Source of the DNA: Epithemia pelagica
Taxonomy: Eukaryota > Protista > Bacillariophyta
NCBI GenBank assembly: GCA_946965045.2
Contig: OX337234.1
Span: forward strand, 372,001-436,000
Direction of reading: 5' to 3'
DNA: 64,000 nucleotides
Shown: positions 32,507-64,000 of the stretch, in pieces
How the letters are laid out: each line of letters starts with the position of its first letter
Numbering within the stretch: the stretch's first letter is position 1
Translations under genes and position numbers: made by a program
The notes under the pieces: generated by a model
Seen by the model: the letters and a program-made list of their open reading frames with translations, nothing else
Told to the model about the DNA's origin: nothing
The model's database searches: none

Positions 32507-32537
<31 letters not shown>

Positions 32538-34546
32538 GATGATGCTTCGTATTCCTTTCGTTCGTCCTTTGGATGGTCGTCATTGAGTGCTTGTTGCTGT
32601 TGCTGTTGTTCTTGTTTCAATTGTTGCTGTTGTTTCAATTGTTCTTGTTGTTGCTGCCGCAATACGTGTCGTAGGACGATTCGATCCGAGGCACGATGTG
32701 TCGTGGCACGGGTTTCCAAACTGGCATGGACCAAAATTTCTTGCAAGTCAATGACCCCTTGGGCATGTTGATACAATGTGTCCACCACGTGCCCTCGTTC
32801 CTCGGGGGACAGGCACACGTGCAACCGATTGTTGTGGTGGTTGTGGTGGTTCCGACTGGTACTACTACTACCGCTAATGCAATACAATTCCCAGACCAAC
32901 CACAAGTGATTCAAACCATGGTCGAGCAAGGCCGGCCAGGAATCCACCACCAGTGCCATGCGACCCACGTCCTGCGACAAAAAGTGGGCCAAGTCCAGCA
33001 ACATTCGTTGTCGTCGTTGTCGTTGTTGTGCAGGGTCCGACAGGTACATGGCAGTCGAGGAGGAATACGGTTCTGGTTGTCGTGTTGTTGTTGTGGTGGT
33101 TGCAGTTGTCGTGACACCCCGAGCCGCAGGAGGAGGCGAGGGGACGGACGACGACGACGAATCGTCGTGGTACAAATGCGACGCCGAAGACACGTCGTCG
33201 TCGTCGTCGTGAGAGGAAGGGGTGGCCCGATTCCAAGGGTGAAGGTATTCTTCGTCTGCTTTTTCGTGTTCGTCCTCCAATAATGGCGTCCGTGGTTCTT
33301 CTTCCTCCCAATGACTGGTCCAGATTCCTTGATCCACGCACAACCAATCCATCCACACATATTCTGGTGCATGGGATTGGGATTGGGATTGTGATTGTTG
33401 CTCGGTTTCCTCCTCCTGCCATTGGTGCAACCGTTTCTGAACCAAGGACAGGGGAGATTGACCCGACGCGGACAGGTAAATGGTGGCGGATTGTGTCATG
33501 GCAAACGACGACGAATCCTTCCTGCTGCTGCTGCTGCTATTGGTACTACGGTGGTCGTCCACCTTTTTTTCATCCCCTCCCGCGTGGTCCACAATGACGA
33601 ATCGTTCGTGGTTCGACGCCGTCGTCGTACGAGCAGCCGCAGCCGCAACGAGTTGTGGCACGTGGTGAATCAAGGGTCCATAATACGAACCAACCAAGTG
33701 TGTGTTGTTGGTGTCGTCGGAATGTTGTTCTTGTGGTTGTGGTTGTAATGATGATGGAGGAGTCGTACTGGCAGTCGTTCGATAGATCCATTCCAAGACG
33801 GCCACGCGTCGGACAAACCAGAGAGGACACTGATAGTGACACAGGGTTTGCCAATAGGGCAATTGGCACAGCACCGAGACGCACCAATCGAGACGAACGC
33901 CCCGTCGACTAAACCACCCATGGTCGTCCTTGTTGTTGTCGTCGTTGTTGTCCTTGTCGTCCTCACTCGGCGAGACTCTGGATGGTGGTGGTGGCTCTAG
34001 TTGTTGTTGTTTCAACTCGGCAATTAAGTGGGGAATGGATTTCAACGAATGATTGGGTGGTCCCATGGCTTGATTGTACAATTGACGGGCCAAGTGCCAT
34101 TCTTGTTCCAGTGTTGTCGTAGTCGTAGTACTCTGATGGCCAAGAGCCGCCTCATACCAATCGTCAAACGTGTCGTACTGCGGATACCACTCTTCTGTTT
34201 CGGAATGGGAGGATTGGTCGTTGTCGTCCCTGCTGATTTCGTCCTCGTCATTGTTACTGTCGAGCGCCAACCGCAGGGTCGTATCGGTTTCTTCCAAGGC
34301 ATCCTTATTCTTTGTGTTCTCGTCGTTGTCGTCATCCTTTTGCGGTGAGGATGGATCCGTCGTGTGCTGCTGCTGTTTGGTAGTACTGGCTGCTGCTGCC
34401 GCATCCTCCGTCCCAGTGGTCGCTCGTGTGGTGGGGGTGGTTCTGGTCGTTATCGTCGTCGTTGTCGCGCTCTTGTGGTGGTGCTGCGGTGGGAACGAAC
34501 GGGAAGCGGAGGAGGATGCTGATGGTTTGGACTGTCGACACCCCAT
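27071..34546 (-). CDS. 2491-aa predicted lipid-anchored HET-like + kinesin-light-chain-type TPR protein
   Basis: The N-terminus MGCRQSK fits myristoylation/palmitoylation. It has YLSASG, YVWMDWLCVDQ, VGRMALVVDSW and LWLVWELYC (HET/TIR-like blocks seen in protist TPR proteins). About 25 42-aa TPR repeats were counted by eye (LGxxHPxTLxxxxNLAxLLxxxGxxxEAE) in clusters, with a central acidic repeat. Single uninterrupted ORF. Confidence 0.9.
29380..30330 (-). repeat. Intragenic acidic tandem repeat, 12 imperfect copies of (D/E)-x-GDESTP...EQQQ-x-(E/Q)ADA
   Basis: Counted in the translation. The DNA shows recurring gagtggattcgtc(g/c)cctt. Confidence 0.85.
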
Positions 34547-35081
34547 GATGGTTGTCGTCCTCTTTTTTTTTCTCCCACAATTATGGAATGCCGCACGTCA
34601 CTCGGGTCCGTCTCTCTCTTGCTTGGTTCCAGCCGCCGAGGGAGAGTTTCTCGAATGGGTTGCGAACGCAGGCGGGTGCAACTCTCTTTCTATATATGTG
34701 AGAGAAAAAGGACCGGAATGGCAGACACTCTCGACGACCAGAGTTCCAAACACAACTCTCTGCCTCTGTCTTGTGCTGGTGAATGTGCCTCTTCTTCTTC
34801 TTTTCTTGTGGTCTCTTTTGTTGTTGAATGATAGTCTCAAACTCCAAACGGCTCGATTCTCGTGGTTCCAATGATGATTCCACAAAGATTCCTGGTGTGC
34901 GGCGCGTCCAGATCTCATCGCCATCGCCATGGTCGCATGTGTGGGCACGAGACGGCACGCGTCTAATCTCGAGCGGTTTAATTCCAGTAAAATGTGATGT
35001 TGATTATGACACAAAAAAAGAAAGGAACGCCTGGGTGGTACAGAACCTGCAGAGCCTGCCATCCCTGCGGGACAGCCCGCC

Positions 35082-37819
35082 ATGCCACCAAAGAGGCGCG
35101 ACGATAGTGCACCATGGAATATATCTCTACCTAGCTGTAGTAGAGTTGGAGGACATGACAGAGAGATACACGAATCATCGACGCCCGACCACACAGAACC
35201 ATATCGAGCAAAGGTCGTAGATATCATCATGTCGAGCGACGAGCAAAGAAACATGCCTGAGCAAAGTGTTTGGGTCAAGGTTATCCAAAAGACGAGCAGT
35301 GACAATTACGAGGACCTCGGAGATCTGTTTCAGATAGTGCCGCGTCCGGCGAACGTGAGTCACTTGCGCGAGAAAGTCAAGGAAAAGGCGGCAAACAACC
35401 TTGCGCATGTTGCCGCTAATGAACTCCTTGTCTACCGTCTCAACAACGAAGTCAGACTGCCGGACGACAATAATGCAATCTTTTCCTTGAATGACAACTC
35501 CACGAAGCTTCATCCAAGGATCCGAATGGACGATTTGCAACTACGAGAGGACGAAACTTTAGTTGTCGTTGCTCCGAAACCACAACAACAACAGCAGGTG
35601 AGTTTTGTTCATGCTTGATGAACTGAACTGAACTGAACTGAACTGAATTTGATTTCTTTTAAATGGTCGATTCTGTTGATGCATGTTTACTCAAACTGTA
35701 TATATATGTTTGTCTTTAACTCATTTTGAAAATCATCAAATCTTGGAACCTGTGTGCGCTAACGTCCGCAGTATGCTCGACTTCCTCTCCATTGAACTCA
35801 GTCGAACCATCACATGAAATAAGGCGCATGGACAATATTTCGTTGGATTGTTCCTTCCTGAAACTGCAGTTTTTGAAGGATCACGACTTAGATTCCTACG
35901 CCAACGCCGCGATAGCATGTGCCAATCAAGACGACGTTGACGAGTCGTTGGCGCATCTTGTCCCATTATCCACCACAACTCGTGGTGCCGCGTCGTTCAC
36001 AGCCATTATTGCGCCTTCGGGAACGGGCAAGACCCAGCTTGCCGCAACTGCGGCCTACAAGTACGGTGACAGGGTTCGCTATTTGCTTTGCGATGCCAGC
36101 TACTCCGACTTTGTTCAAGAGTTTTACGTACCTCACAAGGAACTGGCAATCCTGCTAAGAGATGCATTGAGAGACTTTGGACGGCTTGCCAACCAAGAGG
36201 GGTCAAATGGCGCAAATGCGTATCGGATTTGGTTTCGGGTAAGCGGTGTGGTTTGCCAATTGGCAACTTTATTGGACCGGATTTTGTTCCCAAACTCCGA
36301 ACGTCCAGACGCCAAAGTCACCTTTTCAAGCATACAAGAGAAAGTCAAGAATCTCGGAAAACATATGTTGGTGTTTCTGGACGAAATACCCTCCACTGGA
36401 AACTCTGACTACTCGCTATTCATCAGTCTTCGCGATGTTTTGAGAGCCCTTGGAATATCTCCTGTGCTCATGAGCACTCATACTGGAGCGCAGAATGCAA
36501 TTGTGCAAGGCTCTGAATCGAGTGGTAGTGATGCTGATCCTGACTGGTGTGGGCTTATTACCAGATTGCCCAGATTTCATACGACGAAACCGACCGACGA
36601 GATACCCTACCTAAGTCCACTGGAACGACCTTTGGTTGCCTCCTATCTATCTGAATTTGACCTTGCCGAGACTTCCCTCGACCAGATTGTCGAAACTGTC
36701 CAATCCAGGTTGCAGCGGAAAAAATCGTCGGCATGGACGGAGAATCCGGTCTTCCAGCTCTGTCAACTATTTCGAGCACAAGTCGACCACAATGCTACGG
36801 ATTTGACCACCTATCAGCTTGTTGGGAAACATTTTGGATACATGGTCAATCCTTCAAACTATTCCCGCCGAGACCATCGGCTCACGCGTTCTCAAGCCCT
36901 TCGTCTCGGTTTTCGCGTTCAAATGGTCGTCCCCAGCGAAGAGCCACTGTTGTTTACAGCATTGACAAGCTGGTCCACGTCTTCCTTGGACCCTAGCAAT
37001 CCAAAACTTTTTCCACTAGTTGATGAGACGCGCAATGCAATATCTGTTCGGAGAGCGTATCAGAAAAACTCGGAGCTATTCCAGCCCAGTGTTCCTTCCG
37101 CGAACCCAGCTGCCCTCAAACTAAATGGAGACTTGTTAGAGATGATCAGTCTTGCTTCGGTTTGCTTGGCGTCCATGAATTGTGACCGGGGTGTGGGACA
37201 AGGAATCCTGCTTCCGCATTTCTTTGCTTGTGTTTATCACTTTATGCAAAATACAGATGAGTTGCAAACCGACAAGGTTTCCGCAACCACGAAAGCCATT
37301 CAGTCGGCACTAAACGAGTACGCGACGACCAGCAAGTTTGTTGACGTGGTCATGCCGTGTTGCTCGAGTACTGACTCCCCCTACTTGGAGAAGTGGAAAA
37401 AAGCTACAGCCAATGCCTTTCAAGGTTCCTTGAAGCGCCGTCGGGAAGGTGAACGCCGGGATGGCTGCATCACCAAGCAAGTTGGGGACAAGATCCTGGA
37501 CGTAACACACGTTGAATGCACAAACTATGCTAACGGTTTGACAAAGGAGGTCTTTTCAAATGTGGTCAATCGTCTGAGATCGAACTGCGAAGTATCAGTT
37601 TTGTTTGCATCTTCCCTCCAAAACTTGTTTGCCGAGTCAGATATTAGTTGGGACAACTACATGGCGGACCAATTGCTGGTGGACCCTCACGAAGTGGCTT
37701 TTCTTGGGCTGTCGGCGGAAGGTCCGAGCTGGCTCACTGTTGAAAATGGCAAGGTTTCCCTCGCACCAACAGAAGAGACGAAGTTCCTCCTTGTAATTAT
37801 TGAAACCGGACCCATCTAG
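35082..37819 (+). CDS. CRN-like gene: ubiquitin-like header exon (35082 or 35229 to 35597), intron 35598-35771, NTPase+REase body; the spliced frame is broken by a 1-nt deletion near 35793
   Basis: The header VWVKV...VSHLREKVKEKAANNLAHVAANELLVY...LVVVAPKPQQQ matches the CRN N-terminal pattern (LK-x2-IK-x-K...L..VDA..L.LY and a terminal xLVVxP). The donor is GTGAGT, the branch point gctaac and the acceptor ccgcag. The body is a close paralog of 12205-14547. Confidence 0.75.
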
Positions 37820-37939
37820 TAGGCTGGGCTGTGCACCAATACAACGAATATCGCAGACCGAAATTCATTTCATCAGTCCATTTCTGTCGTGGTGAAATCG
37901 GAGAAGGGAAGAGGATGAGGCGACAGCGTCCTGCTACGA

Positions 37940-40153: not shown

Positions 40154-40224
40154 ACGAAGCACGTGATTTGGGAGTACTTTGGACGAAGCACGTGATTTAG
40201 CACGTTGGACGAAGCACGTGATTT
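40154..40224. promoter_or_regulatory. Three copies of acgaagcacgtgattt containing a CACGTG (E/G-box) core
   Basis: CACGTG occurs at 40160, 40189 and 40215, about 1 kb upstream of the INO1 ATG. A regulatory role is inferred only. Confidence 0.4.
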
Positions 40225-40289
40225 GGGAGCACTGACTGTGGACTGTGTGTGGACCACTCATATTTCTCGGAGCGACGAATGGCGGCAGC

Positions 40290-40872: not shown

Positions 40873-41242
40873 GGCGGCAGCTCTCCTACGTATCCCTTAA
40901 TGGGGTATAAGCCTTGGCCTTATGGCCTTGGCCTGCTGGGTCTGCTAGCCTCCGCCAACAGGCCAACAGCAAAGATGCGCTTATTTCTCGGTTCTCCGAA
41001 TCACGTTCTTTGGACCCAGCCCCACCATTCGTGCCATTCTCAGCATTGCTTTTGTTTTCTCATTACACAGAAAAGCTTCTCCTTTTGAAGCGACACATCG
41101 TCTCTGATCTTCTTCTTCTTCTTCTTGTGTGGGATTGACGACTCTACCTCCTCTATTACTTGGTTTTGGACAGGCCAGGACGCAACAACGAGCGCATATC
41201 TCCAAACTCCAAACCACCAAGAACCACGAAACACACAACATC

Positions 41243-43498
41243 ATGAGTGAGACCACCAATGATGCGAATGGCAGTGCGGACACACCACCACCACCACAAT
41301 TACACAATGGATTGTTTCATGTCCAATCCAAAGATTGTCGGTACACGGATGAGGCCATTTATTCCAATTACACGTACGTTCGTTTGGTTGTTTCTTTGGT
41401 TCCATGGGTTTGTCTATGTCGTCGGGCAAACTCTCTCTCTCTCTCTCTCGGTGTAGTAATTGGGTTGGATCTCGCTCGCTCACTTTGATCCGTCTTGTTG
41501 TTGCTGTGGTTGTTGCTGGTCCTGACAGGTACGAAACGACCGTGGTGGATGGACCCGTCGTGCGACCGGTGCACACGAAATTGCGGTTTCGAACGCAACG
41601 AACGGTCCCCAAGGTACGACACCCGAAAACAGAGTACTGTTGTTGTCAAGGAAGGACCATGGTCTCACCCGAAAACCACAAACGATGGTTCTGTTCTTCT
41701 TCGTGTTGTTGTTGTTCTTGTTGGTTTTCCTGGCGTTGCTTTGGTTGGTTGCTTGGTTGTTGTCGTTGTGGAATGGGGTTTTGTCCATGACGCCACAATG
41801 ATGCACTCTCTATATATACATATTTATCGATACTTGGTTCTCGAATCATAGATGGGTGTCATGTTGGTGGGCTTGGGTGGCAACAATGGGAGTACTTGTG
41901 TGGCAGCGGCCGTGGCCAATCGCTTGGGCTTGACGTGGGAGACCAAACAGGGGACCCAGTCGGCCAATTATTGGGGCAGTTTGTTGTTGGCCAGTACGGT
42001 CAAATTAGGCCATGCCGCCGCCACGGGACAAGCCGTCTATACGCCCTTGCAATCCTTGCTGCCCCTTGGACATCCCAATGAGATTGTCTGGGGTGGCTGG
42101 GATATCAATGGGGCCAACTTGGCCGAGGCCATGAAACGGGCCCAAGTTTTGGAAGTGGACTTGCAACGACAATTGGAACCGCACTTGCGCGAGATTGTGC
42201 CGCTACCATCGATTTACCATGCCGATTTTATTGCCGCCAATCAACAAGAACGGGCCAACAATGTGTTGCCACCGGACATGACCAAATGGGAAAAAGTCCA
42301 ACACATTCGACGCGACATTGCCCAGTTCAAGGCGCACCATGACTTGGATCATGTCACGGTCGTGTGGACGGCCAATACCGAACGCTTTTGTGAAATTCAA
42401 CCGGGCGTTCATGATACCGCCGATCACTTGTTGCAAGCCTTGGAACAAGGCAACGATACGGAAGTGAGTCCGTCCACCTTGTTTGCCATTGCCTCCATTT
42501 TGGAACAGGCTCCCTTTGTCAATGGGTCGCCCCAAAATACCTTGGTTCCCGGCGTCGTTCAATTGGCCGAACGACATGGCGTCTTGATTGGCGGCGACGA
42601 TTTCAAATCGGGACAAACCAAACTCAAATCGGTCTTGGTGGATTTTCTCGTGTCGGCCGGCTGCAAGCCCGTCTCCATGGTCAGTTACAATCATTTGGGC
42701 AACAATGATGGCCGCAATCTCAGTGCTCCCCATCAATTCCGATCCAAGGAAATTTCCAAATCCAATGTCGTGGACGATATGGTGGCCTCCAATGCCATTT
42801 TGTATCCTCACGTGAATAAAACGGAAAACAAGGACACTACTACTACATCGGATCATCCCGATCATGTCGTGGTCATTAAATACGTTCCCTATGTGGGAGA
42901 TTCCAAACGGGCCATGGATGAATATACGTCAGAAATTTTCATGGGTGGAACCAATACCCTCGTCATTCACAATACCTGTCAAGATTCTCTCTTGGCCACA
43001 CCCTTGATTTATGATTTGATTCTCTTGACCGAATTGTGTTCCCGGATTCAAGTCCAAACAGTGGACGAACAGGACGATTCCACCTTGGACTCGGTCGTGA
43101 ACCAGGACGACAAGGACGACAAGAATACTACTGCTTGGGAACCCTTTCACCCCGTCTTGTCCCTCTTGTCCTACATGCTCAAGGCACCCATGGTTCCACC
43201 GGGTGCACCCGTTGTCAATGCCTTGTTTCCGCAACGAGAGGCCATTACCAATGTCCTCAAGGCCTGTCTGGGATTGCCGCCCGAAAATTACATGACCTTG
43301 CAGCACAAATTTGCCTCCTCCCTCCAACAGCAACACGACGAAACCATGCGGCGACGACAACAAACACAAGTAGAAGAGCAAGAAAAACAGACTAGTACCA
43401 ATGGAGTCTCGCATACCACCACCAATGGAGTGATGCCTACCAGCAATGGACACGCCACAAGGAATGGCACTGGACAGTACCAGAATGGAACTCACTAG
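41243..43498 (+). CDS. INO1: myo-inositol-1-phosphate synthase, intact copy; exons 41243-41373, 41529-41613, 41852-43498
   Basis: The spliced N-terminus reads [26 protein letters not shown]...[25 protein letters not shown]. The motifs LWTANTER-like (VWTANTERF), [37 protein letters not shown] and [10 protein letters not shown] are present. Both GT-AG introns keep frame. Confidence 0.97.
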
Positions 43499-47337: not shown

Positions 47338-47526
47338 GATGAAGAATCCGCCGGTAGTCTCTGTATATCGTGCTTGGTTCTAGCAGCACGATTTTGGTGG
47401 CTGTGGTTGTTGGTTTGTCAATAATAATTCTTCGGATTATATATCCTCGACAACAGGAACGGTTCTCACCTCCAAACGGTCAAGGAACCAAAAGAGACGA
47501 ATGGATGCCTTTTCGTTTGGATCTCT

Positions 47527-48999
47527 CTACAGAAAATATATAGCAGCAGTCACCCAAACAATCGGTTCTGGTTGTAGTGTTGTTGTTGTGGTGGTTGCAG
47601 TTGTCGTGACACCCCGAGCCGCAGGAGGAGGCGAGGGGACGGAGGAGGACGACGAATCGTCGTGGTACAAATGCGATGCCGAAGACACGTCGTCGTCGTC
47701 GTCTTGATGAGAAGAGGATGGGGTGGCCCGATTCCAAGGGTGAAAGTATTCTTCGTCTTCTGTTTCTTTGTTTTCGTCCTCCAATAATTGCGTCCGTGGT
47801 TCTTCTTCCTCCCACTGACTGGTCCAGATTCCTTGATCCACGCACAACCAATCCATCCACACATATTCGGGTGGTGGTTGGGATTGTTGTTGTTGTTGTT
47901 GGGTGATTTCCTCCTGCCATTGGTGCAAGCGTTTCTGAACCAACGACAGGGGAGATTGACCCGACGCGGACAGGTAACTGGTGGCGGGTTGTGTCATGGT
48001 AGGATTCGTAGTACTCGAACGATGGTGGTCGTCCACCTTTTTTTTATCCCCTCCCGGGTGGTCCCCAACGACGAATCGTTCGTGGTTCGACACCGTCGTC
48101 AAACGAGCAGCAGCGGTAACGAGTTGTGGCACGTGGTGAATCAAGGGTCGAAACAAGTGTGTGTTGTTGGTGTCATCGGAATGTTGTTCTTGTTGTTCTT
48201 GTGGTTGTGGTTGTAATGATGATTGAGGAGCCGTACTGGCAGTCGTTCGATAGATCCATTCCAAGACGGCCACGCGTCGGACAAACCAGAGGGGACACTG
48301 ATAGTGACAAAGCGTTTGCCAATAGGGCAATTGGCACAGCACCGAGACGCACCAATCGAGACGAACGCCCCGTCGACTAAACCACCCATGGTCGTCCTTG
48401 TTGTTGTCAATGTTGTTGTCGTCCTCACTCGGCGAGACTCTGGATGGTGGTGGTGGTGGCTCTTGTGGTGGTGGTTGTTGGTTCAACTCGGCAATTAACT
48501 GGGGAATGGGTTTCAACGAATGATTGGGTAGCCCAATGGCTTGATTGTACAATTGACGGGCCAAGTGCCATTCTTGTTCCAACGTTGTCGTTATTGTCGT
48601 CGTAGTATTCTGACTGCTGATAGCCGCCTCATACCAATCGTCAAACGTGTCGTACTGCGGATACGACTCTTCTGGTTCGGTTTCGTCGGAATGGGAGGAT
48701 TCGTCGTTGTCGTCGTCCCTGCTGCTTTCGTCGTCATGGTCACTGTCGAGCGCCAACCGCAGAGTCGTATCGGTTTCTTCCAAGGCATCCTTCTTTGTGT
48801 TCTCGTCGTTGTCGTCCTTCTTGGGTGGTGACCATGGATCCGTCGTGTGCTGCCGCGGTTTGGTAGGAGTGGCCGCTGCTGCCGCCGCATCCTCCTTTTC
48901 AGTGGTTTTGGTGGTTCTTGTCGTCGCGCTCGTTGGCTGCGGTTTTTGGAATCCAGTGGAAGCGGGGGTAGATGCTGGTTTCGACTGTCGACACCCCAT
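47527..48999 (-). CDS. C-terminally truncated copy (490 aa) of the HET-like/TPR gene; N-terminus only, no TPRs
   Basis: Homologous to 33068-34546 (MGCRQSKP...YVWMDWLCVDQ...QPEP). Homology ends at 47563, and the ORF closes with the novel tail IVWVTAAIYFL*. It may be non-functional. Confidence 0.7.
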   Translation of the reverse strand: MGCRQSKPASTPASTGFQKPQPTSATTRTTKTTEKEDAAAAAATPTKPRQHTTDPWSPPKKDDNDENTKKDALEETDTTLRLALDSDHDDESSRDDDNDESSHSDETEPEESYPQYDTFDDWYEAAISSQNTTTTITTTLEQEWHLARQLYNQAIGLPNHSLKPIPQLIAELNQQPPPQEPPPPPSRVSPSEDDNNIDNNKDDHGWFSRRGVRLDWCVSVLCQLPYWQTLCHYQCPLWFVRRVAVLEWIYRTTASTAPQSSLQPQPQEQQEQHSDDTNNTHLFRPLIHHVPQLVTAAARLTTVSNHERFVVGDHPGGDKKKVDDHHRSSTTNPTMTQPATSYLSASGQSPLSLVQKRLHQWQEEITQQQQQQSQPPPEYVWMDWLCVDQGIWTSQWEEEEPRTQLLEDENKETEDEEYFHPWNRATPSSSHQDDDDDVSSASHLYHDDSSSSSVPSPPPAARGVTTTATTTTTTLQPEPIVWVTAAIYFL

Positions 49000-49750
49000 G
49001 ATGCTCCTCTTTTTCCCTCTCCCACAATTATGGAATGCAGCAATACGTCACTCGGGTCCGTCTCTCTCTCTCTCTCGCTTGTTTCCAGCCGAGGGAGAGT
49101 TTCTCGAATGGGTTGCGAACGCAGGCGGGTGCAACTCTCTCTGTATTAGAAAGAGGACCGGAATGGCAGACACTCTCGACACGACAAGAGTTCCAAACAC
49201 AACTCTCTGCCTCTGTCGTGTGCTGCGGATAATGTGTCTCTTCTTTTAGTGTGGTCGTTGTTGGATAGTCTCAAACTCCAAACGGCTCGATTCTCGTGGT
49301 TCCAATGATGATTCCACAAAGATTCCTGGTGTGCGGCGCGTCCAGATCTCATCGCCATCGCCATGGTCGCATGTGTGGGCACGAGACGGCACGCGTCGAA
49401 TCTCGAGCGGTTGAATTCCAGTAAAATCTGATGTTGATTTTGAATCAAATAGAGAAAGAAACGCCTGGGTAGTACCGAACCTGCAGAGCCTGCCATCCCT
49501 GCGGGACAGCCCGCCACGCCACCAAAGAGGCGCGACGACATAGTGCACCCGGTGCACTGGAACACACATGTGCTATTGTCGCCCAGAAGGAAGATTTCCA
49601 CGATACTCCCTATCTACCGTAGATACGGCCTCTTTTAAGAATGGTTAAATAGTCGGGTATCGAAAGCTCTAGGTAGTTGAGAAAAACGGTCCACGGCGCC
49701 AGATCTGCTTCCACCCATGTATATCGTCTCACAAAGTTCAATTTTTTTGT

Positions 49751-51431
49751 ATGCAACGAGCAAAGGTCGTAGAACTCATCATGTCGAGCGACGAGCAAGG
49801 AAACATGCCTGAGCAAAGTGTTTGGGTCAAGGTCATCCAAAAGACGGGTGAAGACAATTACGTGGACCTCGGAGATCCGTTTCAGATAGTGCCGCGTCCG
49901 GCGAACGTGAGTCACTTGCGCGAGAAAGTCAAGGAAAAGGCGGCAAACAACCTTGCGCATGTTGACGCTAATGAACTCCTTGTCTACCGTCTCAACAACG
50001 AAGTCAGACTGCCGGACGACAATCATGCAATCTTTTCCATGAATGGCAACTGCACGAAGCTTAATTCAATGACCCGAATGGAATCATTGCAACTACGAGA
50101 GGACGAGAATTTAATTGTCGTTGCTCCGAAACCACAACAGCAGCAGCAGCAGCAGGTAAGTTTTGTTCATGCTTGATGAACTGAACTGAACTGAATTTGA
50201 TTTCTTTTAAATGGTCGATTCTGTTGATGCATGTTTACTCAAACTGTATATATGTTTGTCTTTTACTCATTTTGAAAATCATCAAATCTTGGAACCTTTG
50301 TGCGCTTATCGTCCGCAGTATGCTCGACCACCTCTACATCCGAACTCAGTCGAACCCACCAAGAACCACGACACACACAACATCATGAGTGGGACCACCA
50401 ATGATGAAATGAATGAACAACAAAAACAACAGGCGAATGATTCGGAGGATATGAAACGGAAAATTGAAAACATAGAGAAAATGATGATCGAGTCAAAAAC
50501 GGATGACAGAAACATGTCGAAGGCGAACACTGAATTTGCAACCGATCTGTTGACCGGGCTGTCGATCTCCTGGCGTAACGCCGTCGCCAACATGAATGTC
50601 GGAGTCGGATCTGTTGTAGGAAATTTTGAATGGGAGCAAGCACTTTTGACGGGAGGAACAGGAAAACTTTCGGAAAATGATGGGACCCCATTGGCACTGA
50701 AATGGCTCTTTGGTAAGTTGGATCAAGCGCTTGCTGTGGACGGCAAGAAGCTAGGCATAAGAGACGTGAAAGGAAAGAAATTAGCACCTATCAAGGCCGA
50801 TCGAAAGGTGGCAAACGGCAAGTCTGACGGATGTGTTACGGAGGAATCAATGCTCGTACTTTGTGAGCGGTCTCAGGAATCGTTCTACACATACGGTATG
50901 GCACTGGTCGAGATGAAGACCGACAGGACGCCGATGAATAAGGCCCAAATGTTACTCCAGCTTGCTGCTTTCTCGAGGGAAAGTGTATGGGGGCAATCAA
51001 CAATTCTGCTGGGTACGGATGGGAACAAGAAATGGTACTTGGTACAATTTGAGGCCCTCAACAGCATGTTGATAACCCAGTACTATGATGGGCGGGAGTG
51101 TTTGAATGAATTTGAATCTCTCCTGTAGTCTTTGAAAACCAGGGAGGCAAAACTGCGAGGTAGCAAGCGCGCTAAACTTGCTCCAGTATTGGAAGAACAG
51201 TTTCAATCAGAACATCATCTTCCTGGGGCTTCTACCCCGGGCACAGCTTCTCTAGCATGGACCGATGGAGCGGGAGAAGGCCAGGATGCTGTGGACAAGG
51301 CAATAGAGAACGAGGCTCTGTTACATCGACTTGCTAACGCACTTGCGGAGTCACCTTTGAGTGACGGAGTCCGCCCATCTCTTCCGGAATGGTCTCTTGC
51401 TAAAAATGTGGTTCCTTCATACTATACGTAG
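49751..51431 (+). pseudogene. CRN header (49751-50155) + intron + REase exon (50319-51431) with a premature TAG at 51126-51128
   Basis: The splice is in frame (QQQ|YARPPLHP). AAG in the 61-62 kb copy is TAG here, and the frame continues to 51431. Confidence 0.8.
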
Positions 51432-52729
51432 AGGGGAAGGATTGAAACCATTCTAAGAAAGCTTTTCCCCTAGCTCACACATGCTAACCCCAAAATACAA
51501 ATGTCACCGCTCAAGATTTTCTGCAATTCTGAAGATCCACAGCGACTACCTCTGTTTAGAATTAAGGTGTTGTGGAATCGAACCACTGCGCTACCAGCCA
51601 CCTTAATCCAACTATTAGTCGTATGTACGTCGTCCGCAAACTGTCCCCCCAATGGAGATTTTTTTCTCGATTCATATCCTATTTTCCATAAAAAATCAGA
51701 AAGGACACGCCGGCATTTCCTTGTCACATTTCAAATCAGTTTGAGCGACCCAGCGTGCATGACGGTTGCCGTTGGTGGTTGGTGCACGACACTCATAAAA
51801 CAAACAAACCTCCAGTACAGCGGCCGTGTCCATGGCAATTCTTGCAATGGCATGATTTTTCAGCTTCCATGCTACCCAGGTACGTCAAGAAAGACAGTGC
51901 TGCGATTGGGCTAAGGACAAGCATCTCAATAGTCCCTCCCTGTTGTTTTTGTTCGCATACACCCCTTGAGCCCCATTTTCTGGACTCGTTGCGACGTCTC
52001 ACTTTTCACCAGTCCAATTTTGCTTGTAGTCTTTATGATTGATTCATTTGTAGCCCTTTTACTCCGATACTAGTCTAGGTAGAATTCCTGTTCTATATTT
52101 TATCATAGGGGTAAATATGAAGGTCAATGGTGGTGTCCTGCTCGACCAGGGATTCTCTTGTCTTTTTTCTTCTCCTTCTCCTCGTCTTCACCTTGAAGAA
52201 GATTCAGCAAACACTAAGAATTTGTCTCAGCGACCATTAGCCTAGAAAGAAAGTGGTGACAATCAGCCTCATGATGTAGTACTACTCCTAAGAGTAAGAA
52301 GAAGAAACCAAATCGTCCCCAACCAAGAAGACAACTCGAACCATGGATGTGACAAGCCCTACAATCAGAAAATGGGCGAAAACACTACCAATCTATCAAT
52401 CCTAAGAAGAAACAGAAGGCACAAACAACAACTGAAGGAAAGACGCGCTCTGTCTACAGTCTACAATGATTCGTCCGCGGTTCATGTGCCATGGCCGATG
52501 GTCTTACCGGTACCGTGATAGGGCCCTTCAGATTTTGCTCGCATGGTTTTTATGAGCTGTCGCTCGCGAGCGTCTGGAATTTGAATCGTGTTGATCAGAG
52601 GACGCCCGCCAACCTTCAACTGTCACTTGCACGCCGGCCATTCTACATGACGATTTGCTTTTGGGACATTTTATGGGGGAGAAGGACAGAGTTCTGTGCG
52701 GACGACGTACGTACGGTTTATAGGTGGTC

Positions 52730-54943
52730 ATGGCAGTGCGGACACACCACCACCACCACAATTACACAATGGATTGTTTCATGTCCAATCCAAAGATTGT
52801 CGGTACACGGATGAGGCCATTTATTCCAATTACACGTACATTCGTTTGGTTGTTTCTTTGGTTCCATGGGTTTGTCAATGTCGTCGGGCAAACTCTCTCT
52901 CTCTCTCTCGGTGTAGTAATTGGGTTGGATCTCACTCGCGCACTTTGATCCGTCTTGTTGTTGTTGTTGCTGGTCCTGACAGGTACGAAACGACCGTGGT
53001 GGATGGACCCGTCGTGCGACCGGTGCAGACGAAATTGCGGTTTCGAACGCAACGAACGGTCCCCAAGGTACGACACCCGAAAACAGAGTACTGTTGTTGT
53101 CAAGGAAGGACCATGGTCTCACCCGAAAACCACAAACGATGGTTCTGTTCTTCTTCGTGTTGTTGTTGTTCTTGTTGGTTTTCCTGGCGTTGCTTTGGTT
53201 GGTTGCTTGGTTGTTGTCGTTGTGGAATGGGGTTTTGTCCATGACGCCACAATGATGCACTCTCTATATATACATATTTATCGATACTTGGTTCTCGAAT
53301 CATAGATGGGTGTCATGTTGGTGGGCTTGGGTGGCAACAATGGGAGTACTTGTGTGGCAGCGGCCGTGGCCAATCGCTTGGGCTTGACGTGGGAGACCAA
53401 ACAAGGGACCCAGTCGGCCAATTATTGGGGCAGCCTGTTATTGGCCAGTACGGTCAAATTGGGTCATGCCGCCGCCACCGGAGAGGCCGTCTATACGCCC
53501 TTGCAATCCTTGTTGCCCCTTGGACATCCCAATGATATCGTGTGGGGTGGCTGGGATATAAATCGGGCCAATTTGGCCGAGGCCCTGAAACGGGCCCAAG
53601 TCTTGGAAGTGGACTTGCAACAACAATTGGAACCGTATTTGCGCGAGATTGTGCCGCTGCCATCGATTTACCATGCCGATTTTATTGCCGCCAATCAACA
53701 AGAACGGGCCAACAATGTGTTGCCACCGGACATGACCAAATGGGAAAAAGTCCAACACATTCGACGCGACATTGCCCAGTTCAAGGCGCACCATGACTTG
53801 GATCATGTCACGGTCGTGTGGACGGCCAATACCGAACGCTTTTGTGAGATTCAACCGGGCGTTCATGATACCGCCGATCACTTGTTGCAAGCCTTGGAAC
53901 AAGGCAACGATACGGAAGTTAGTCCGTCCACCTTGTTTGCCATTGCCTCCATTTTGGAACAGGCCCCCTTTGTCAATGGGTCGCCCCAAAATACCTTGGT
54001 TCCCGGCGTTGTCCAATTGGCCGAACGACACGGCGTCTTGATTGGCGGCGACGATTTCAAATCGGGACAAACCAAACTCAAATCGGTCTTGGTCGATTTT
54101 CTCGTGTCGGCCGGCTGCAAGCCCGTCTCTATGGTCAGTTACAATCATTTGGGCAACAATGATGGCCGCAATCTCAGTGCTCCCCATCAATTCCGATCCA
54201 AGGAAATTTCCAAATCCAATGTCGTGGACGATATGGTGGCCTCCAATGCCATTTTGTATCCTCACGTGAATAAAACGGAAAACAAGGACACTACTAGTAC
54301 ATCGGGTCATCCCGATCATGTCGTGGTCATTAAATACGTTCCCTATGTGGGAGATTCCAAACGGGCCATGGATGAATATACGTCAGAAATTTTCATGGGT
54401 GGAACCAATACCCTCGTCATTCACAATACCTGTCAAGATTCTCTCTTGGCCACACCCTTGATTTATGATTTGATTCTCTTGACGGAATTGTGTTCCCGGA
54501 TTCAAGTCCAAAAAGTGGACGAACAGGACGATTCCACCTTGGACTCGGTCGTGGACAATGACAATGACAAGAATACCACTGCTTGGGAACCCTTTCATCC
54601 CGTCTTGTCCCTCTTGTCCTACATGCTCAAGGCACCCATGGTTCCACCGGGTGCACCCGTCGTCAATGCCTTGTTTCCGCAACGAGAGGCCATTACCAAT
54701 GTCCTCAAGGCCTGTCTGGGATTGCCACCCGAAAATTACATGACCTTGCAACACAAATTTGCCTCCTCCCTCCAACAGCAACACGACGAAACCATGCGGC
54801 GACGACAACAACAAGAAGAAGAGCAAGAAAAACAGACTAGTACCAATGGCGTCTCGCATACCACCACCAATGGAGTGATGCCTACCAGGAATGGGCACGC
54901 CACAAGGAATGGCACTGGACAGTACCAGAATGGAACTCACTAG
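52730..54943 (+). pseudogene. INO1: INO1 copy 2, separated from its ATG and promoter (5' piece at 50356-50406)
   Basis: Homology to copy 1 starts abruptly at 52730, inside codon 9, and the rest is intact (both introns, ORF 53306-54943). It could at most initiate at the MGVML of exon 3. Confidence 0.75.
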
Positions 54944-55931
54944 ACAAGAACTGTTGGATGTATCCGTTTATTTCCTGTTTTGTTTGTTTCTTGGCCCAAT
55001 CTATTACTTACATGTTTGACACCCACAATTCTAGTTTCACCAGCACACCTTCGGTTCCGTTTGGGTCCACACACGTTATAATACAAAGTGTGGAGACCAA
55101 CGGGTTCCTCCCATACCTTTCACGCAATTCCCATTCCGCTATAGTATACCGACCACACAACTGCCATTACTGTGTGATTACACACGTTCTCCACCGACAC
55201 ACACATAGGCAAAGTGATGACACGATTCTCTCCTGGAACGACTACTGGATCTCCATGGCTGCCTGCCGCATACAATATGTGGGACAGCTGTTCCGATGCA
55301 GTGATATTCACCAGAAGGAGAACATGATCTCCAAATTCCCAAACGTATAATGCACTCCAATAATCATAGAGCAGATTACCAGTCGTAGTTGTGGAGAATC
55401 GTAGGAATCCAAACACGCGTCCGACTACGTACTGCTTGGAGAAGGATCACTGGTCACACAATGAACAAGCTTGTACTTTTGATGATACCATCATTCGAAA
55501 GGGAGATGCAGATCCTTAGTCTCGCCCATTCACACTTGGCATTGCTCGTCTATACATACATGACAGAGGCAAAGGAACATACACGTTTACAGTAATATGA
55601 TTTTTAACTTGAATCGCCATTGCGTTCGGTGACGCAGCGCACAATTCACCGAACACGGAAGCGACAGAGAGTAAAAGAGCTAGTATAGCCATGCACAAAC
55701 AACACCCGGGACACCACGAGACACTGCATGCTTCACAAAACAACCAAGAGACGAATACATATGCCTGTCCACAGCAAAAGGGGCTTTCCTCGGCGGTCAC
55801 CTTTCTCCTACATATTGAATGCCGACAGTCTTGCATTTATCCCTGGTCATTTGTTTTGTTCCACACGTGCTACACATGTCTCTTTTTTGCTTGGACTGTT
55901 GCTGGTATCGTATTCTTGGACGTGAGACCAA

Positions 55932-58762
55932 CTACAGCACTACGCAACAACAGCCAGCATTTTGTTGAACAGGCAACAATGGTTCTCCTGTTTCCCGCTC
56001 GTAAATTAAGAATTCAATCACCTCTGTGGCATAGGCGCGGGGATTCGTCCAATCCCAGTTTCGATAGTAGGTTTCATCTTGTTCGGTTAACACCGTTTCT
56101 TGATAGGTCTTGTCTTCGACAAAATTACCAATTTCGGCTTGACTGGCCGCATTGACATCCTTGGCTGGTACATAGGGAGGCCGTTTTCGATCGGAAATGA
56201 TGGATTCCCAATTGACATTGCGAAAGTAGGGATGGGCCATAATTTCTTCGCATCCACCCGTGCCCAATCGCTTGTGTTCGTCCTTTTCCAGTAAGCGCAT
56301 ACACAAATCTTTGGCATCCGGTTCAAAGTATTCCTTGGGAAAATCTGGTTCCATTTCCAGTGTGGCACAATCAATGGCTTTTTCCTTGGTTTGTTTGCCC
56401 TTGGACAAGCCAAAGTTGAGAGCGGCTTCGGATCGGAACGGATTGGCCCCGCAAATGAATTCGGTGACACAGCACCCAAAACTGAACCAATCGACCGTGT
56501 GTCCATAGGGCATGCGTTTGCCACGCTTGTCGCGACGCAACATTTCCGGGGCCCAATACCCACGCGTACCCGCGGCGCCGTGCAAGGTGGGAGTAATTTT
56601 GGTGGCCAAGCCCAAATCCGTGATTTTGACACGACCGTCATCGGCCATGAGACAATTCTCTGGCTTCAAATCGCGGTAGACATAGCCTTGATCATGCAAG
56701 GCTTGCAATCCCAACATGATGCGGGCTGCGTAATATTGGACTTCTCGTTTGGGGAAGCGACCCTTTTGGTGCAAATGGAAACCCAAATCACCACCCGTCA
56801 TGAGATCCAATATCAGATAGACATCGTCCTTGCTATGAAACGAGTATTTGAGATTCACCACAAAGTTGCTTTCCACAGCAGCCAAGGCAGATCGTTCATT
56901 TACTGCCAGTGTTTCTGATTTCTTCATTTTGATCCGTCTCTTGTTCATGACCTTCATTGCATAGAGTTTTCCGGATGTACCCTTCTTGCAAGCTACGAAG
57001 AAAGGAACAGGTGAGAACCAGTTGGATGCCGTTGTCAACATGTGTGTGTGTGTGTGGCTTGTGACGGTTCCTGCAAAACCACACGTTGGACGACCGTCTC
57101 TACCACAAAAAGCGCAACGACAGACACACACACTAGCACTACTAGAGACATGTACGTACCATTGACCAACCCAAAGCCTCCTCGTCCCAAGACTCGCATG
57201 ATATAAAAATCTTCGGGTACAACGGGTCGATCCTGATACCACAAGAATTGTTTGGCCTTGAGAAATTCTTGCGATTCCAAAAACAAGTGCCAATAATCGC
57301 GTCGAAGCGATTCCATCACGACCGTTTCCGCCTTGTCAAAGAGGCCATCGTAGACGGCTTCTTTTTGCGATTGCAAAAATCGATGTTTCAACAATCGCAT
57401 ACTCATGGTGGCCTCTCCAAATTCTTCCACCGACAATCCCGAAACACTCCGTTCTCCCATGAGAGCCGGTGGCGGTGCCTTGCGCGGTGTGTGGGAGGAA
57501 GAGCCCATCGATGCCGTGTCGGTTGTCGTATTAGTGGGAGCAGCAGGAGCAGGAGGACTGCTATTACTGGGCGGTTGGGATTGGGGAGGTTGTCCATGAT
57601 TGGACGATTGAAAGGATAAGGACGAGGACGCAGCCGTATCGGCATCCTTGACAGCCTTGGCTTCGGCGGATTCCTCCGGTTTGGTGGCATCCGTATTAGG
57701 GTCAAGTGTTTCCACTTGTGGTTGTTGTTGCTGTTGTGGTGGTGGTTGAGGTTGGTTCCATCCAGATGATGATAGGGTCGTCGGATTGGCGGTGGGGACT
57801 GTGGCATCGGTGGAAGCCGATGCCGATCCATCGGCCGTCGTTTCCTCCGTAGTATTCGGTGGTTCCACGGACGACGATCGTCCTCCTCCGGTACTGCCAC
57901 CACTGCTACGTCGCGTCGATCGTGGTTTGGACGACGACAGTGTCGTTGTATTCGTAGTCGTAAAGTCACCACTGGCCGTACTACTGGCCGACGCTCGTCG
58001 TCCATTGGATCCATGGTGTGATGGTGGGTGTCGTGATTTGGCGGCAGCCACGGCGGCTTCTTCCTTTTCCTTTTCTTCCCATTCTCTCCAATCGTCAATC
58101 AAATCGTCCAAAGTGGCATCGCGAATGCCAATCAAGGATTGACTGCATTTGGGATAATCGCAATAAATTCGAAAGGTTGCATCTTCTTTTAAATAGGCAT
58201 GGGTCGATTGGCGATCGTTCACGATTCGTTCCAAATCGCATTCGTCAATTTCCGTCCGCGGTGGCAATTGCGTCGTGCCCACGGCCCACGCGGCTGCACC
58301 CGCCGCCGATTCCGCCACCAAATTCCCATTGTTCGTGGCATCTTTGGGGGCTGTCGTCGTTGGATTCGTACTCGTCGTAGCAGCCGGTGTTACGGTTGCT
58401 CCGGCGGCGGGCGGTGGACTGGGTTTGACCAAAATGTAGTGTTCCAAAATGGCTTGGGCTTGTTTGCGTCGCGATCGGCCGCGCAATTTTTTGAACCTCA
58501 ACACATCTTCGCAAAAATTGAGACGCACATAATCGTCGTGATGTTGTTTGATAAAACTGGAAAACAAAAAGACACAAATGGCCGATTGTTCCAAAAAGGA
58601 ATCCAAATTGCCCAAACTACGGGCCTTGGTTTTGGACCATTCCACCAACAATTCATCCGACGACGGTGTCTCCCAGGGCAAGACGGGTTTGGGTCCATCG
58701 TCTTGCGTATTGATCGCATTCACGTATTGGGCGTCTTCAATGGCATCCTGTAATTCTTCCAT
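55932..58762 (-). CDS. GRK: GRK-like kinase, copy 2; exons 58762-57160 and 56992-55932
   Basis: Same structure and exon lengths (1603 + 1061 nt) as copy 1, with scattered substitutions and compensating small indels. Confidence 0.9.
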
Positions 58763-58951
58763 GATGAAGAATCCGCCGGTAGTCTCTGTATATCGTGCTT
58801 GGTTCTAGCAGCACGATTGTGGTGGCTGTGGTTGTTGGTTTGTCAATAATAATTCTTCGGATTATATATCCTCGACAACAGGAACGGTTCTCACCTCCAA
58901 ACGGTCAAGGAACCAAAAGAGACGAATGGATGCCTTTTCGTTTGGATCTCT

Positions 58952-61208: not shown

Positions 61209-62889
61209 ATGCAACGAGCAAAGGTCGTAGAACTCATCATGTCGAGCGACGAGCAAGGAAACATGCCTGAGCAAAGTGTTTGGGTCAAGGTCATCCAAAA
61301 GACGGGTGAAGACAATTACGTGGACCTCGGAGATCCGTTTCAGATAGTGCCGCGTCCGGCGAACGTGAGTCACTTGCGCGAGAAAGTCAAGGAAAAGGCG
61401 GCAAACAACCTTGCGCATGTTGACGCTAATGAACTCCTTGTCTACCGTCTCAACAACGAAGTCAGACTGCCGGACGACAATCATGCAATCTTTTCCATGA
61501 ATGGCAACTGCACGAAGCTTAATTCAATGACCCGAATGGAATCATTGCAACTACGAGAGGACGAGAATTTGATTGTCGTTGCTCCGAAACCACAACAGCA
61601 GCAGCAGCAGCAGGTAAGTTTTGTTCATGCTTGATGAACTGAACTGAACTGAATTTGATTTCTTTTAAATGGTCGATTCTGTTGATGCATGTTTACTCAA
61701 ACTGTATATATGTTTGTCTTTTACTCATTTTGAAAATCATCAAATCTTGGAACCTTTGTGCGCTTATCGTCCGCAGTATGCTCGACCACCTCTACATCCG
61801 AACTCAGTCGAACCCACCAAGAACCACGACACACACAACATCATGAGTGGGACCACCAATGATGAAATGAATGAACAACAAAAACAACAGGCGAATGATT
61901 CGGAGGATATGAAACGGAAAATTGAAAACATAGAGAAAATGATGATCGAGTCAAAAACGGATGACAGAAACATGTCGAAGGCGAACACTGAATTTGCAAC
62001 CGATCTGTTGACCGGGCTGTCGATCTCCTGGCGTAACGCCGTCGCCAACATGAATGTCGGAGTCGGATCTGTTGTAGGAAATTTTGAATGGGAGCAAGCA
62101 CTTTTGACGGGAGGAACAGGAAAACTTTCGGAAAATGATGGGACCCCATTGGCACTGAAATGGCTCTTTGGTAAGTTGGATCAAGCGCTTGCTGTGGACG
62201 GCAAGAAGCTAGGCATAAGAGACGTGAAAGGAAAGAAATTAGCACCTATCAAGGCCGATCGAAAGGTGGCAAACGGCAAGTCTGACGGATGTGTTACGGA
62301 GGAATCAATGCTCGTACTTTGTGAGCGGTCTCAGGAATCGTTCTACACATACGGTATGGCACTGGTCGAGATGAAGACCGACAGGACGCCGATGAATAAG
62401 GCCCAAATGTTACTCCAGCTTGCTGCTTTCTCGAGGGAAAGTGTATGGGGGCAATCAACAATTCTGCTGGGTACGGATGGGAACAAGAAATGGTACTTGG
62501 TACAATTTGAGGCCCTCAACAGCATGTTGATAACCCAGTACTATGATGGGCGGGAGTGTTTGAATGAATTTGAATCTCTCCTGAAGTCTTTGAAAACCAG
62601 GGAGGCAAAACTGCGAGGTAGCAAGCGCGCTAAACTTGCTCCAGTATTGGAAGAACAGTTTCAATCAGAACATCATCTTCCTGGGGCTTCTACCCCGGGC
62701 ACAGCTTCTCTAGCATGGACCGATGGAGCGGGAGAAGGCCAGGATGCTGTGGACAAGGCAATAGAGAACGAGGCTCTGTTACATCGACTTGCTAACGCAC
62801 TTGCGGAGTCACCTTTGAGTGACGGAGTCCGCCCATCTCTTCCGGAATGGTCTCTTGCTAAAAATGTGGTTCCTTCATACTATACGTAG
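61209..62889 (+). CDS. Intact CRN-like effector: Ubl header exon 61209-61613 + exon 61777-62889 encoding a PD-(D/E)xK REase (505 aa spliced)
   Basis: The GTAAGT...ccgcag intron is phase 0. The C-terminus has FEW...SENDG..., DVKG, GKSDGCV, MALVEMKT, AQMLLQLAA and ILLGTDGNKKWYLV, matching the D...ExK...Q...TD..W pattern of CRN C-terminal nucleases. Confidence 0.8.
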
Positions 62890-63429: not shown

Positions 63430-64000
63430 CAGGGTTGTGAAGTAAAAAGTAACAAAGTCCCAAGTATGTAGAGAATTTTACTTTACTTTTGTGTTTTTTC
63501 GTCATTCCCATTCAATTCCATTCCGACCTCTTACACGACTTCTTATTCCCAAGTAAATCCCCTATATTTGATTATAGTTACTTTCATCCGTTAAGTCAAG
63601 TCTCCTTCCCTATTTGTGTTACTTTAATTCTCGAAGTAATTCTCTCTCCACTGGACCAATGAATTACAATTCCCCTACCTTCAGGCCCAAAGTACTCTAC
63701 AGAAGTCATAATTCTAAGTCTGCGACCCACAGTACGAAAGTCATTTGTTAATGTGTCGTATCAAAAGCAAACACCAAATGACTGTTTGACCCAACAACCA
63801 ACAACCAACAACCAACAACCAACCACTAACAACTTGAGGTGCAAAGATACAAGTACATCCCACACACACAGGCAATACACAATACGTAAACGAACGCTCA
63901 AGACAACAACATGGCTCCTCCTACGAAGAAGAAAGCATCGAGACGTTCGTCACAAGACAATAGCGAGGAAGCTCTTGATCCAGCCTCCTCCGCCAGGCTG
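63430..64000 (+). mobile_element. 5' end of a putative hAT-family DNA transposon (runs off the window)
   Basis: INO1 homology stops abruptly and CAGGGTTGTGAAGTAAAAAGTAAC begins. Many AAGTA/TACTT subterminal motifs follow, reminiscent of Tol2-type ends. The other TIR and the TSD are outside the window. Confidence 0.55.
63911..64000 (+). CDS. Start of an ORF inside the putative hAT element (partial)
   Basis: ATG GCT CCT CCT ACG AAG AAG AAA (MAPPTKKKASRRSS...) follows an acaacaac leader and is open to the edge. It has an NLS-like basic patch. Confidence 0.4.
   Translation, partial: MAPPTKKKASRRSSQDNSEEALDPASSARL

What the first reader, a model, noticed from the sequence alone, without database searches (positions are those of the whole stretch)
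50356..52743. REase module sits inside the first codons of INO1 and has captured its 5'UTR and start codon
50356-50406 matches the INO1 leader and first codons (41214-41264) at 49/51 nt (MSETTND vs MSGTTND). INO1 resumes at 52730 (atggcagtgcggac), only 3 nt further along the original. So a 2.3-kb segment carrying the REase ORF interrupts INO1 exon 1 in frame with its ATG, and the CRN header is spliced on upstream. Exon 2 is a three-part chimera: header-gene remnant, INO1 leader, nuclease. The same structure recurs at 61814-63429. No TIR or clear TSD is visible. This fits a nuclease cassette that moves, or is copied by break repair, into an expressed gene and then acquires headers, which would link CRN toxins to their proposed transposon ancestry.
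Basis: partly seen in the sequence, partly recalled or inferred. Interest (0 to 1): 0.8.

Follow-up and report, generated by a model that had tools for sequence, protein, structure and literature searches.

The report
Break-repair patch builds Crinkler-like fusion gene
In what is likely a diatom, a duplicated copy of the housekeeping gene INO1 carries a 2.3-kb insert made of a nuclease exon and a clipped repeat element, likely pasted in once by DNA-break repair rather than by a self-moving element, which yields a predicted Crinkler-like fusion protein.

Summary
The INO1 leader (49/51 nt), the 3-nt loss and the resumption at 52730 are exact. The insert is a composite, not one element. 50406-51607 is an exon of a CRN-type REase paralog, starting exactly at that paralog's splice acceptor, plus 3' flank. 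51608-52730 is a multi-copy inverted-repeat element clipped at both ends, by 13 nt on the right. Other near-identical REase paralogs join other headers at other points. The "recurrence" at 61814 is a tandem duplicate of the same event; a second assembled contig has one chimera ORF. The header and the INO1 leader came from a duplicate of 33068-47562 with a 5.4-kb deletion. There is no TSD or poly-A, and an intron is retained, so the best reading is a one-off, DNA-templated repair insertion. The REase fold and catalytic residues are supported. No displayed contig bridges the REase/leader junction. Still unexplained: why the left break hits the exon boundary exactly. This is a base-resolution example of known CRN module swapping, not evidence that CRN nucleases move themselves.

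The parts
41214..43498 (+). Intact INO1 (unit A); ATG at 41243; the empty site is 41264-41268
   Evidence: Pfam PF07994/PF01658; junction read-out
33068..35808 (.). Likely source region of the duplicated part: 5' end of a TPR gene (- strand) plus CRN-like header exon 35229-35597, intron and start of exon 2
   Evidence: Self-BLAST to 47563-50356 and 58988-61814; alignment
47563..49549 (-). Duplicated 5' fragment of the TPR gene; start of unit B
49781..50155 (+). CRN-like header exon 1 (125 codons, phase-0 GT donor)
   Evidence: Pfam Crinkler E 1.4e-4, 23 bits against cut-off 24.6, on the copy-2 exon
50319..50355 (+). Header-gene exon-2 remnant; ends at the 5.4-kb deletion junction (35808 to 41214; 1-nt overlap)
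   Evidence: run X4 has zero depth in the intron bin and a contig that starts at the acceptor
50356..50405 (+). INO1 5' leader and first 7 codons, now internal coding linker
   Evidence: 49/51 match
50406..51431 (+). REase exon of a paralogous CRN-type gene; starts at that paralog's exon start; stop at 51126-51128 in this copy
   Evidence: Loose ends before 50406/61864; paralogs P0020/P0030 differ at 1 and 2 of 340 residues; fold
51432..51607 (+). 3' flank shared with other REase loci; no poly-A
51608..52730 (.). Multi-copy inverted-repeat element, outer ends missing on both sides; arms 51608-51638 and 52697-52727; keeps an intron (about 51876-52008) that run X4 splices
52730..54943 (+). INO1 of unit B without its leader and start; last-exon ORF still open (545 codons)
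61239..62889 (+). Second (tandem-duplicated) chimeric gene: exon 1 61239-61613, exon 2 61777-62889; open frame of 495 codons
63066..63416 (.). Same clipped element with a 772-nt internal deletion
63430..64000 (.). Start of a separate insertion 14 nt into the third INO1 copy (about 4.2 kb, inferred)
   Evidence: 4,288- and 4,301-nt contigs at depth 76-79; a third INO1 ORF on a contig of the window's length

Best explanation
The insert is an exon of a Crinkler-type nuclease paralog joined to a clipped inverted-repeat element, likely copied once from genomic DNA into a break in a spare INO1 copy. Steps: (1) Shown: 47563 onward is collinear with 33068-47562; inferred: a tandem duplication made a spare INO1. 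(2) Shown: 35809-41213 is missing in the duplicate, which puts the CRN header exon, its intron and 37 nt of exon 2 in frame with the INO1 leader. (3) Inferred: a double-strand break after INO1 codon 7 was repaired by copying about 2.3 kb from one ectopic template (if a donor already carried the element) or from two, with loss of 3 nt and no TSD. The break may have come from the element's transposase; nothing shows that the REase made it. (4) Shown: the whole unit was duplicated again on the window's contig; one copy reads a stop and the other lost 772 nt. (5) Predicted: copy 2 encodes a 495-residue header + linker + REase protein. The order of steps 2 and 3 is not fixed.
For: Collinearity and tandem units. 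INO1 proteins fall into A-type (P0268, P0264, P0178) and B-type (P0263, P0267, P0266) with 9 fixed columns. The 538,985-nt contig holds 3 INO1 ORFs; the 519,440-nt contig holds 2 and one chimera ORF, P0022, so one event explains all copies. Donor-like paralogs lie on other contigs: P0020 and P0030 start at the same MNEQ and differ at 1 and 2 of 340 residues. Before 50406, X1 and X2 contigs carry a pyrimidine-rich stretch ending in AG and X4 carries a different, coding-like end, so 50406 is a paralog's exon start. The right arm continues for 13 shared nt in 4, 2 and 4 contigs of X1, X2 and X3 before the flanks differ; the left arm continues 16 nt in X1-X3. There is no run of 7 or more A in the insert, and an intron spliced in X4 is retained. 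Small deletions, absence of poly-A and two-donor chimeras are described for repair-mediated duplication (PMC2671141, passages).
Against: The outer junctions overlap by only 1 nt, which chance gives often and which is below the 2-9 nt range in PMC2671141; the insert is also far longer than the 162-bp mean there. The left break hits the donor's exon start exactly, and repair from DNA does not predict that. The INO1 end resembles the spliced donor junction (5 of 9) more than the genomic one (2 of 9). No displayed contig bridges 50406 in chimeric form, and none has 31 letters on both sides of 52730/63416 (16, 29, 16 on the left). In X2 the depth leaves no room for a contig over 61801-61823 (374 seen, 383 expected without one). 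Donor DNA was not retrieved, so one template against two is open; depth arithmetic in X2 suggests most REase loci share the flank to at least 63063. The four runs are one study and may be the assembly's own source.
Confidence: 0.68

Rival explanations
1. The inverted-repeat element mobilised the neighbouring REase exon (one-ended or aberrant transposition, or gap repair at an element end), so the element rather than a random break drove the capture.
For: The insert's right end lies 13 nt from the element's apparent terminus. One X1 contig runs unbroken from the REase into the left arm (61924-63098), and most REase loci may share the flank up to the arm. A second insertion sits 14 nt away in the third INO1 copy. 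TE-assisted copying of a CRN-like gene is proposed in fish (PMC12957317, section 8).
Against: Both arms are clipped, there is no TSD, and the REase lies outside the arm pair. An X4 contig leaves the shared flank at 63054 and an X3 contig at 63072, so at least some REase loci lack the element.
Confidence: 0.13
2. An RNA step set the left junction. Either a donor cDNA was the template, or the insert first carried the donor's acceptor, the four INO1 bases starting with GC at 41264 served as a GC splice donor, and that intron was later lost precisely. This would explain both the exact exon boundary and the missing bases.
For: The junction is exactly at the donor's exon start. Both introns are phase 0, so a break inside the donor intron would also have been in frame and selection does not force the exact boundary (inference). 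Similarity to the spliced end is 5 of 9 against 2 of 9.
Against: No poly-A, and the element's intron and the header intron are retained. The GC donor context is weak (recalled consensus). Other paralogs switch headers within about 20 nt of this point, so the linker is a frequent breakpoint. The coincidence was noticed after the fact.
Confidence: 0.09
3. One reading: the REase segment is a self-mobile cassette with fixed ends, which cuts its target and inserts.
For: The REase fold and catalytic residues are intact. The same left end occurs behind a different flank in X1 and X2. The family is multi-copy and recently spread.
Against: That other flank is a splice acceptor, as the spliced X4 form shows. 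Paralogs join at 61870 and further downstream. The right end belongs to another element, the second copy is a tandem duplicate, and no other paralog seen sits in INO1.
Confidence: 0.05
4. The junctions are an assembly artefact among collapsed repeats.
For: No displayed contig bridges 50406 in chimeric form; X2 lacks cover at 61801-61823; X4 joins the header remnant and leader to INO1, not to the REase.
Against: The chimeric ORF is on two assembled contigs with 1 residue difference (P0027, P0022). B-type INO1 copies share fixed changes across both contigs. X1 has excess depth of about 264 over the header/leader junction bin. The leader differs from intact INO1 at 2 sites.
Confidence: 0.04

Closest known systems
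CRN/CR (Crinkler-RHS) header and C-terminus reassortment (PMC5289972, passages and section 11; PMC3726527, passages)
   Same: A header plus a REase-fold C-terminus. The same header carries different C-termini and the same C-terminus carries different headers, with the switch just after the header. CRNs in free-living eukaryotes are reported there.
   Different: There the swap is between CRN genes at the HVLVVVP hotspot. Here the join runs through the leader of a housekeeping gene, lies downstream of an intron, and its junctions can be read base by base.
Repair-mediated duplication at double-strand breaks (PMC2671141, passages)
   Same: A copy of DNA present elsewhere, a small target deletion, no poly-A or TSD, and sometimes two donors.
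   Different: Here the insert is 2.3 kb against a mean of 162 bp, the donors are on other contigs, and the outer overlaps are only 1 nt.
AACRNL of fish, copied with flanking hAT/mariner elements (PMC12957317, abstract and section 8)
   Same: A CRN-like gene of a free-living eukaryote next to TIR elements.
   Different: There the TIRs flank the gene on both sides. Here both arms lie 3' of the REase and are clipped, and the toxin domain differs.
Homing endonuclease genes (recalled)
   Same: A nuclease ORF interrupting a conserved gene.
   Different: No intron or intein restores INO1, there are no fixed ends, and no independent second insertion was found.

Membership tests
CR (Crinkler-RHS) protein | Ubl-type Crinkler header | tested here: inconclusive
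   PF20147 E 1.4e-4, 23 bits, below the 24.6 cut-off; header not folded
CR (Crinkler-RHS) protein | C-terminal REase-fold domain | tested here: met
   Model pLDDT 69.7. VIA: 1wdj Z 7.8 / rmsd 3.8 / 130 aligned, BpuSI 7.7 / 4.2 / 140, DrdV 7.5 / 3.3 / 122, HsdR 7.1 / 6.4 / 132; ranks 3-13 are all nuclease-fold entries; ranks 1-2 are mitoribosomal chains at Z 9.7, 9.6, rmsd 8. Each Z alone is middling. Foldseek had no hit at E 0.001 and Pfam none.
CR (Crinkler-RHS) protein | PD-(D/E)xK-type catalytic residues kept | tested here: met
   E 54/59, D 55/59, E 58/59, K 55/59, Q 57/59 in the alignment, which used 58 of the homologs found; all present in both window copies
CR (Crinkler-RHS) protein | Headers and C-termini exchanged among paralogs | tested here: met
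   REase with other N-termini in P0004, P0025, P0006, P0008; header with NTPase C-termini in P0002 and P0174/P0177; P0003 header like that of REase protein P0080, 40% over 145 aa
CR (Crinkler-RHS) protein | Nuclease or toxin activity, delivery | not testable with these tools
   needs an assay
Cut-and-paste DNA transposon (whole 2.3-kb insert) | TIRs at both ends of the insert | tested here: not met
   The only strong arm pair is 51608-51638 / 52697-52727
Cut-and-paste DNA transposon (whole 2.3-kb insert) | Target-site duplication | tested here: not met
   3-nt loss instead
Cut-and-paste DNA transposon (whole 2.3-kb insert) | Same two ends at unrelated sites | tested here: inconclusive
   No genome held. 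Contigs show the right end continuing and other left ends, but the tables were cut.
Non-autonomous TIR element (51608-52730 only) | Terminal inverted repeats, many copies, variable flanks | tested here: met
   superfamily and TSD not determined
Retrocopy | Poly-A tail, TSD, introns removed | tested here: not met
Helitron capture | 5' TC and 3' CTRR ends (motifs recalled) | tested here: not met
   The insert ends read otherwise
Homing endonuclease cassette | Independent insertions at the same target | tested here: not met
   The second copy is a tandem duplicate
Homing endonuclease cassette | Enzyme cuts the empty site | not testable with these tools
   needs an in vitro assay
Repair-mediated duplication | Donor elsewhere, small deletion, no poly-A or TSD | tested here: met
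   donor seen only as protein and as contig ends
Repair-mediated duplication | Microhomology of 2-9 nt | tested here: not met
   1 nt at both outer junctions; up to 7 nt inferred at the inner REase/element junction from one X3 contig

The most novel reading that the evidence does not exclude
Diatom CRN nuclease exons are dispatched as near-whole units by a repeatable route, either driven by an adjacent TIR element or through an RNA step that sets the junction at the exon start. They land in the 5' ends of expressed genes, so CRN reassortment can recruit non-CRN leaders and has a definable mechanism.
Probability: 0.15. Interest if true: 0.75.

Novelty: new member of a known kind. Interest (0 to 1): 0.4.

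Why it matters
CRN module swapping is well described, but its mechanism is argued mostly from protein architecture. This locus gives a recent event with the empty site, donor-like paralogs and all junctions in one genome. It points to non-homologous repair inside a segmental duplicate, with a housekeeping-gene leader as linker. It makes the question testable by a genome-wide junction survey. It does not show that CRN nucleases are mobile.

Tried and rejected
No whole genome is held, so the genome-wide end search could not be run. The metagenome scan with the REase alignment gave 585 pattern hits and 0 confirmed relatives. The arm-motif scan gave 1 locus, L001, a bacterial chance match. Rfam gave 0 hits in 49500-53500. 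Foldseek gave no hit at E 0.001. The ESM Atlas gave no answer. None of 5 exact look-ups of neighbouring ORFs was in the collection. Four look-ups of earlier findings were empty. Zhang et al. 2016 is not held and is known here only through PMC5289972. Rejected: the 14-nt INO1 match at 63416-63429 as a microhomology that made the duplication, because a third INO1 ORF exists on a contig of the window's length, so INO1 is better read as interrupted at 63430. Rejected: a multi-copy element at 63430, because single 4.3-kb contigs at low depth cover it. Translation of the element's interior with X4's introns gave no long frame. Six literature searches (listings seen) showed no paper on this kind of event in diatoms; that is not proof of absence.
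Full report
Observation. The INO1 leader match (49 of 51 nt), the 3 missing bases and the resumption at 52730 = 41268 are exact, and header exon 1 splices in phase 0 onto an exon 2 that is open through header remnant, INO1 leader and REase. Only the second copy is open (495 codons); the copy at the given coordinates has a stop at 51126-51128, near the end of the nuclease core. Contigs of all 4 runs read the copy-2 base there, but contigs drop minority variants. Named INO1 and REase relatives are mostly diatom proteins, so the host is likely a diatom.

Context. The window holds a tandem array. 41268-51776 matches 52730-63234 at 97%, and 33068-35808 matches 47563-50356 and 58988-61814. Unit B is therefore collinear with 33068-47562, minus 35809-41213 and plus the insert. 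The INO1 leader was not captured by the nuclease; it is simply what follows the deletion. The two chimeric copies differ at 4 of 1,934 aligned nt over 49843-51776, while the INO1-kinase parts differ at 141 of 6,000. Of 7 INO1 cluster members, 3 lie on a 538,985-nt contig (the length given for the window's own ORFs), 2 on a 519,440-nt contig, 1 on a 69-kb contig and 1 is a 66-residue fragment. The 6 long ones split into A-type and B-type with 9 fixed columns. The 519-kb contig carries one chimera ORF, P0022. One insertion, present on both contigs and re-duplicated on one, explains this; that the contigs are haplotypes is inferred.

Left end. Logan contigs of 4 runs (one study, possibly the assembly's source; 4 of 24 runs listed) were laid twice. 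One search showed 24 of 52 loose ends and 32 of 188 pieces; one search showed 24 of 493 and 32 of 1,481. In X1 and X2 the sequence before 50406/61864 is pyrimidine-rich and ends in AG; in X4, which shows GT-AG skips and so behaves as RNA, it is a different, coding-like end. So 50406 is the first base of an exon in a paralog. P0020 and P0030 (contigs of 1.09 and 0.81 Mb) start at the same MNEQ and differ at 1 and 2 of 340 residues. Other paralogs join elsewhere: the P0025 type at 61870 and the P0004 type a few codons later, each with an unrelated header.

Right half. 51608-52730 has inverted arms and several times the depth of the REase in X1-X3 (depth is only a rough guide). In other copies the right arm runs on for 13 shared nt (4, 2 and 4 contigs in X1, X2, X3) before the flanks differ, and the left arm for at least 16 nt. 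The window's copy is clipped at both ends, so the insert's right end is not an element end. An intron that X4 splices is retained, and there is no A-run of 7 or more, which favours a DNA template. Whether a donor already carried REase and element together is open: one X1 contig runs unbroken across the join and X2 depth suggests most loci share the flank to 63063, while X4 and X3 contigs leave at 63054 and 63072.

Protein. The domain has a restriction-endonuclease-like fold by VIA (Z 7.1-7.8 to DUF820, BpuSI, DrdV and HsdR; middling scores, but ranks 3-13 agree), with no Foldseek or Pfam hit. E, D, E-x-K and Q are kept in 54-58 of 59 aligned sequences. A profile search found 138 relatives; among the 16 I read, N-termini are varied. 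The header scores just under the Crinkler cut-off.

Results against my reading. No displayed contig bridges the leader/REase junction in chimeric form. None has 31 letters on both sides of the element/INO1 junction. X2 has no depth left for the header/leader junction, although X1 has an excess of about 264 there. One X4 contig joins header remnant and leader to intact INO1, with no REase. The longest exact run shared by the chimera and the window's INO1 leader is 19 nt, too short for a 31-mer graph to switch, so this is either an empty-site allele (header first, REase later) or a mosaic through an unseen allele. The exact exon boundary and the 5/9 against 2/9 similarity are not predicted by DNA repair; they keep the RNA-step rival alive at low odds.

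Comparison. Header and C-terminus exchange is the known mode of CRN evolution (PMC3726527, passages; PMC5289972, passages and section 11, which also relay the proposed transposon ancestry and a Helitron hypothesis). The junctions fit repair-mediated duplication except for size and the short overlaps (PMC2671141, passages). TE-assisted copying of a CRN-like gene is proposed in fish (PMC12957317, abstract and section 8). No supplements were read. Homing, Helitron, hAT and GC-donor features are recalled, not taken from a call.

Verdict. The feature is real and recent, and most likely a one-off repair insertion inside a segmental duplicate that makes a new CRN-like fusion. It is a new member of a known kind, interest 0.4. 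The bolder reading, a repeatable exon-dispatch route, is not excluded (0.15).

Noticed in passing
window 35839-37935 and 12089-14191: A 2.1-kb NTPase module is present twice, inverted, at 95.6%, once behind its own header (P0003) and once behind the Ubl-like header: a second header swap in the same window.
   Followed up: partly
window 35229-37819: At the acceptor shared with the chimeric copies this gene runs into a stop after 7 codons; three downstream AG sites would keep the frame. It is a pseudogene or is spliced differently.
   Followed up: partly
window 35229-35597 vs 49781-50155: Header exons differ by 18 non-synonymous and 4 synonymous codons, whereas the kinase exon copies differ by 0 and 22.
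   Followed up: no
window 63430-64000: A separate insertion 14 nt into the third INO1 copy; its start looks like a hAT end (recalled). It is covered by single 4.3-kb contigs at lower depth than other single loci, so it may be hemizygous.
   Followed up: partly
window 61800 (run X2): A contig shares the header intron and exon start, then continues in frame into another sequence: a further C-terminus for the same header.
   Followed up: no
window 61773-61864 (run X4): An RNA-like contig joins header remnant and INO1 leader to intact INO1 without the REase; a possible header-INO1 fusion or empty-site allele.
   Followed up: partly
window 47563-50356 vs 33068-35808: This part of the duplicate is about 10% diverged (262 of 2,612) while INO1-kinase is 2.3%; a patch near 34664-34915 matches unit C better than unit B, which suggests conversion or unequal exchange.
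   Followed up: no
window 53306-54943: B-type INO1 ORFs stay open although they lack their own start (30 synonymous and 14 non-synonymous codons against A); they may be translated from a later Met.
   Followed up: no
window 16-1383 vs 2790-4107; 10349-11458 vs 37940-38939: Older duplications at about 81%; a Kelch ORF at 2558-3481 overlaps the first.
   Followed up: no
window 27071-34597: A 2,508-codon open frame with TPR repeats; its 5' part is copied into units B and C.
   Followed up: no
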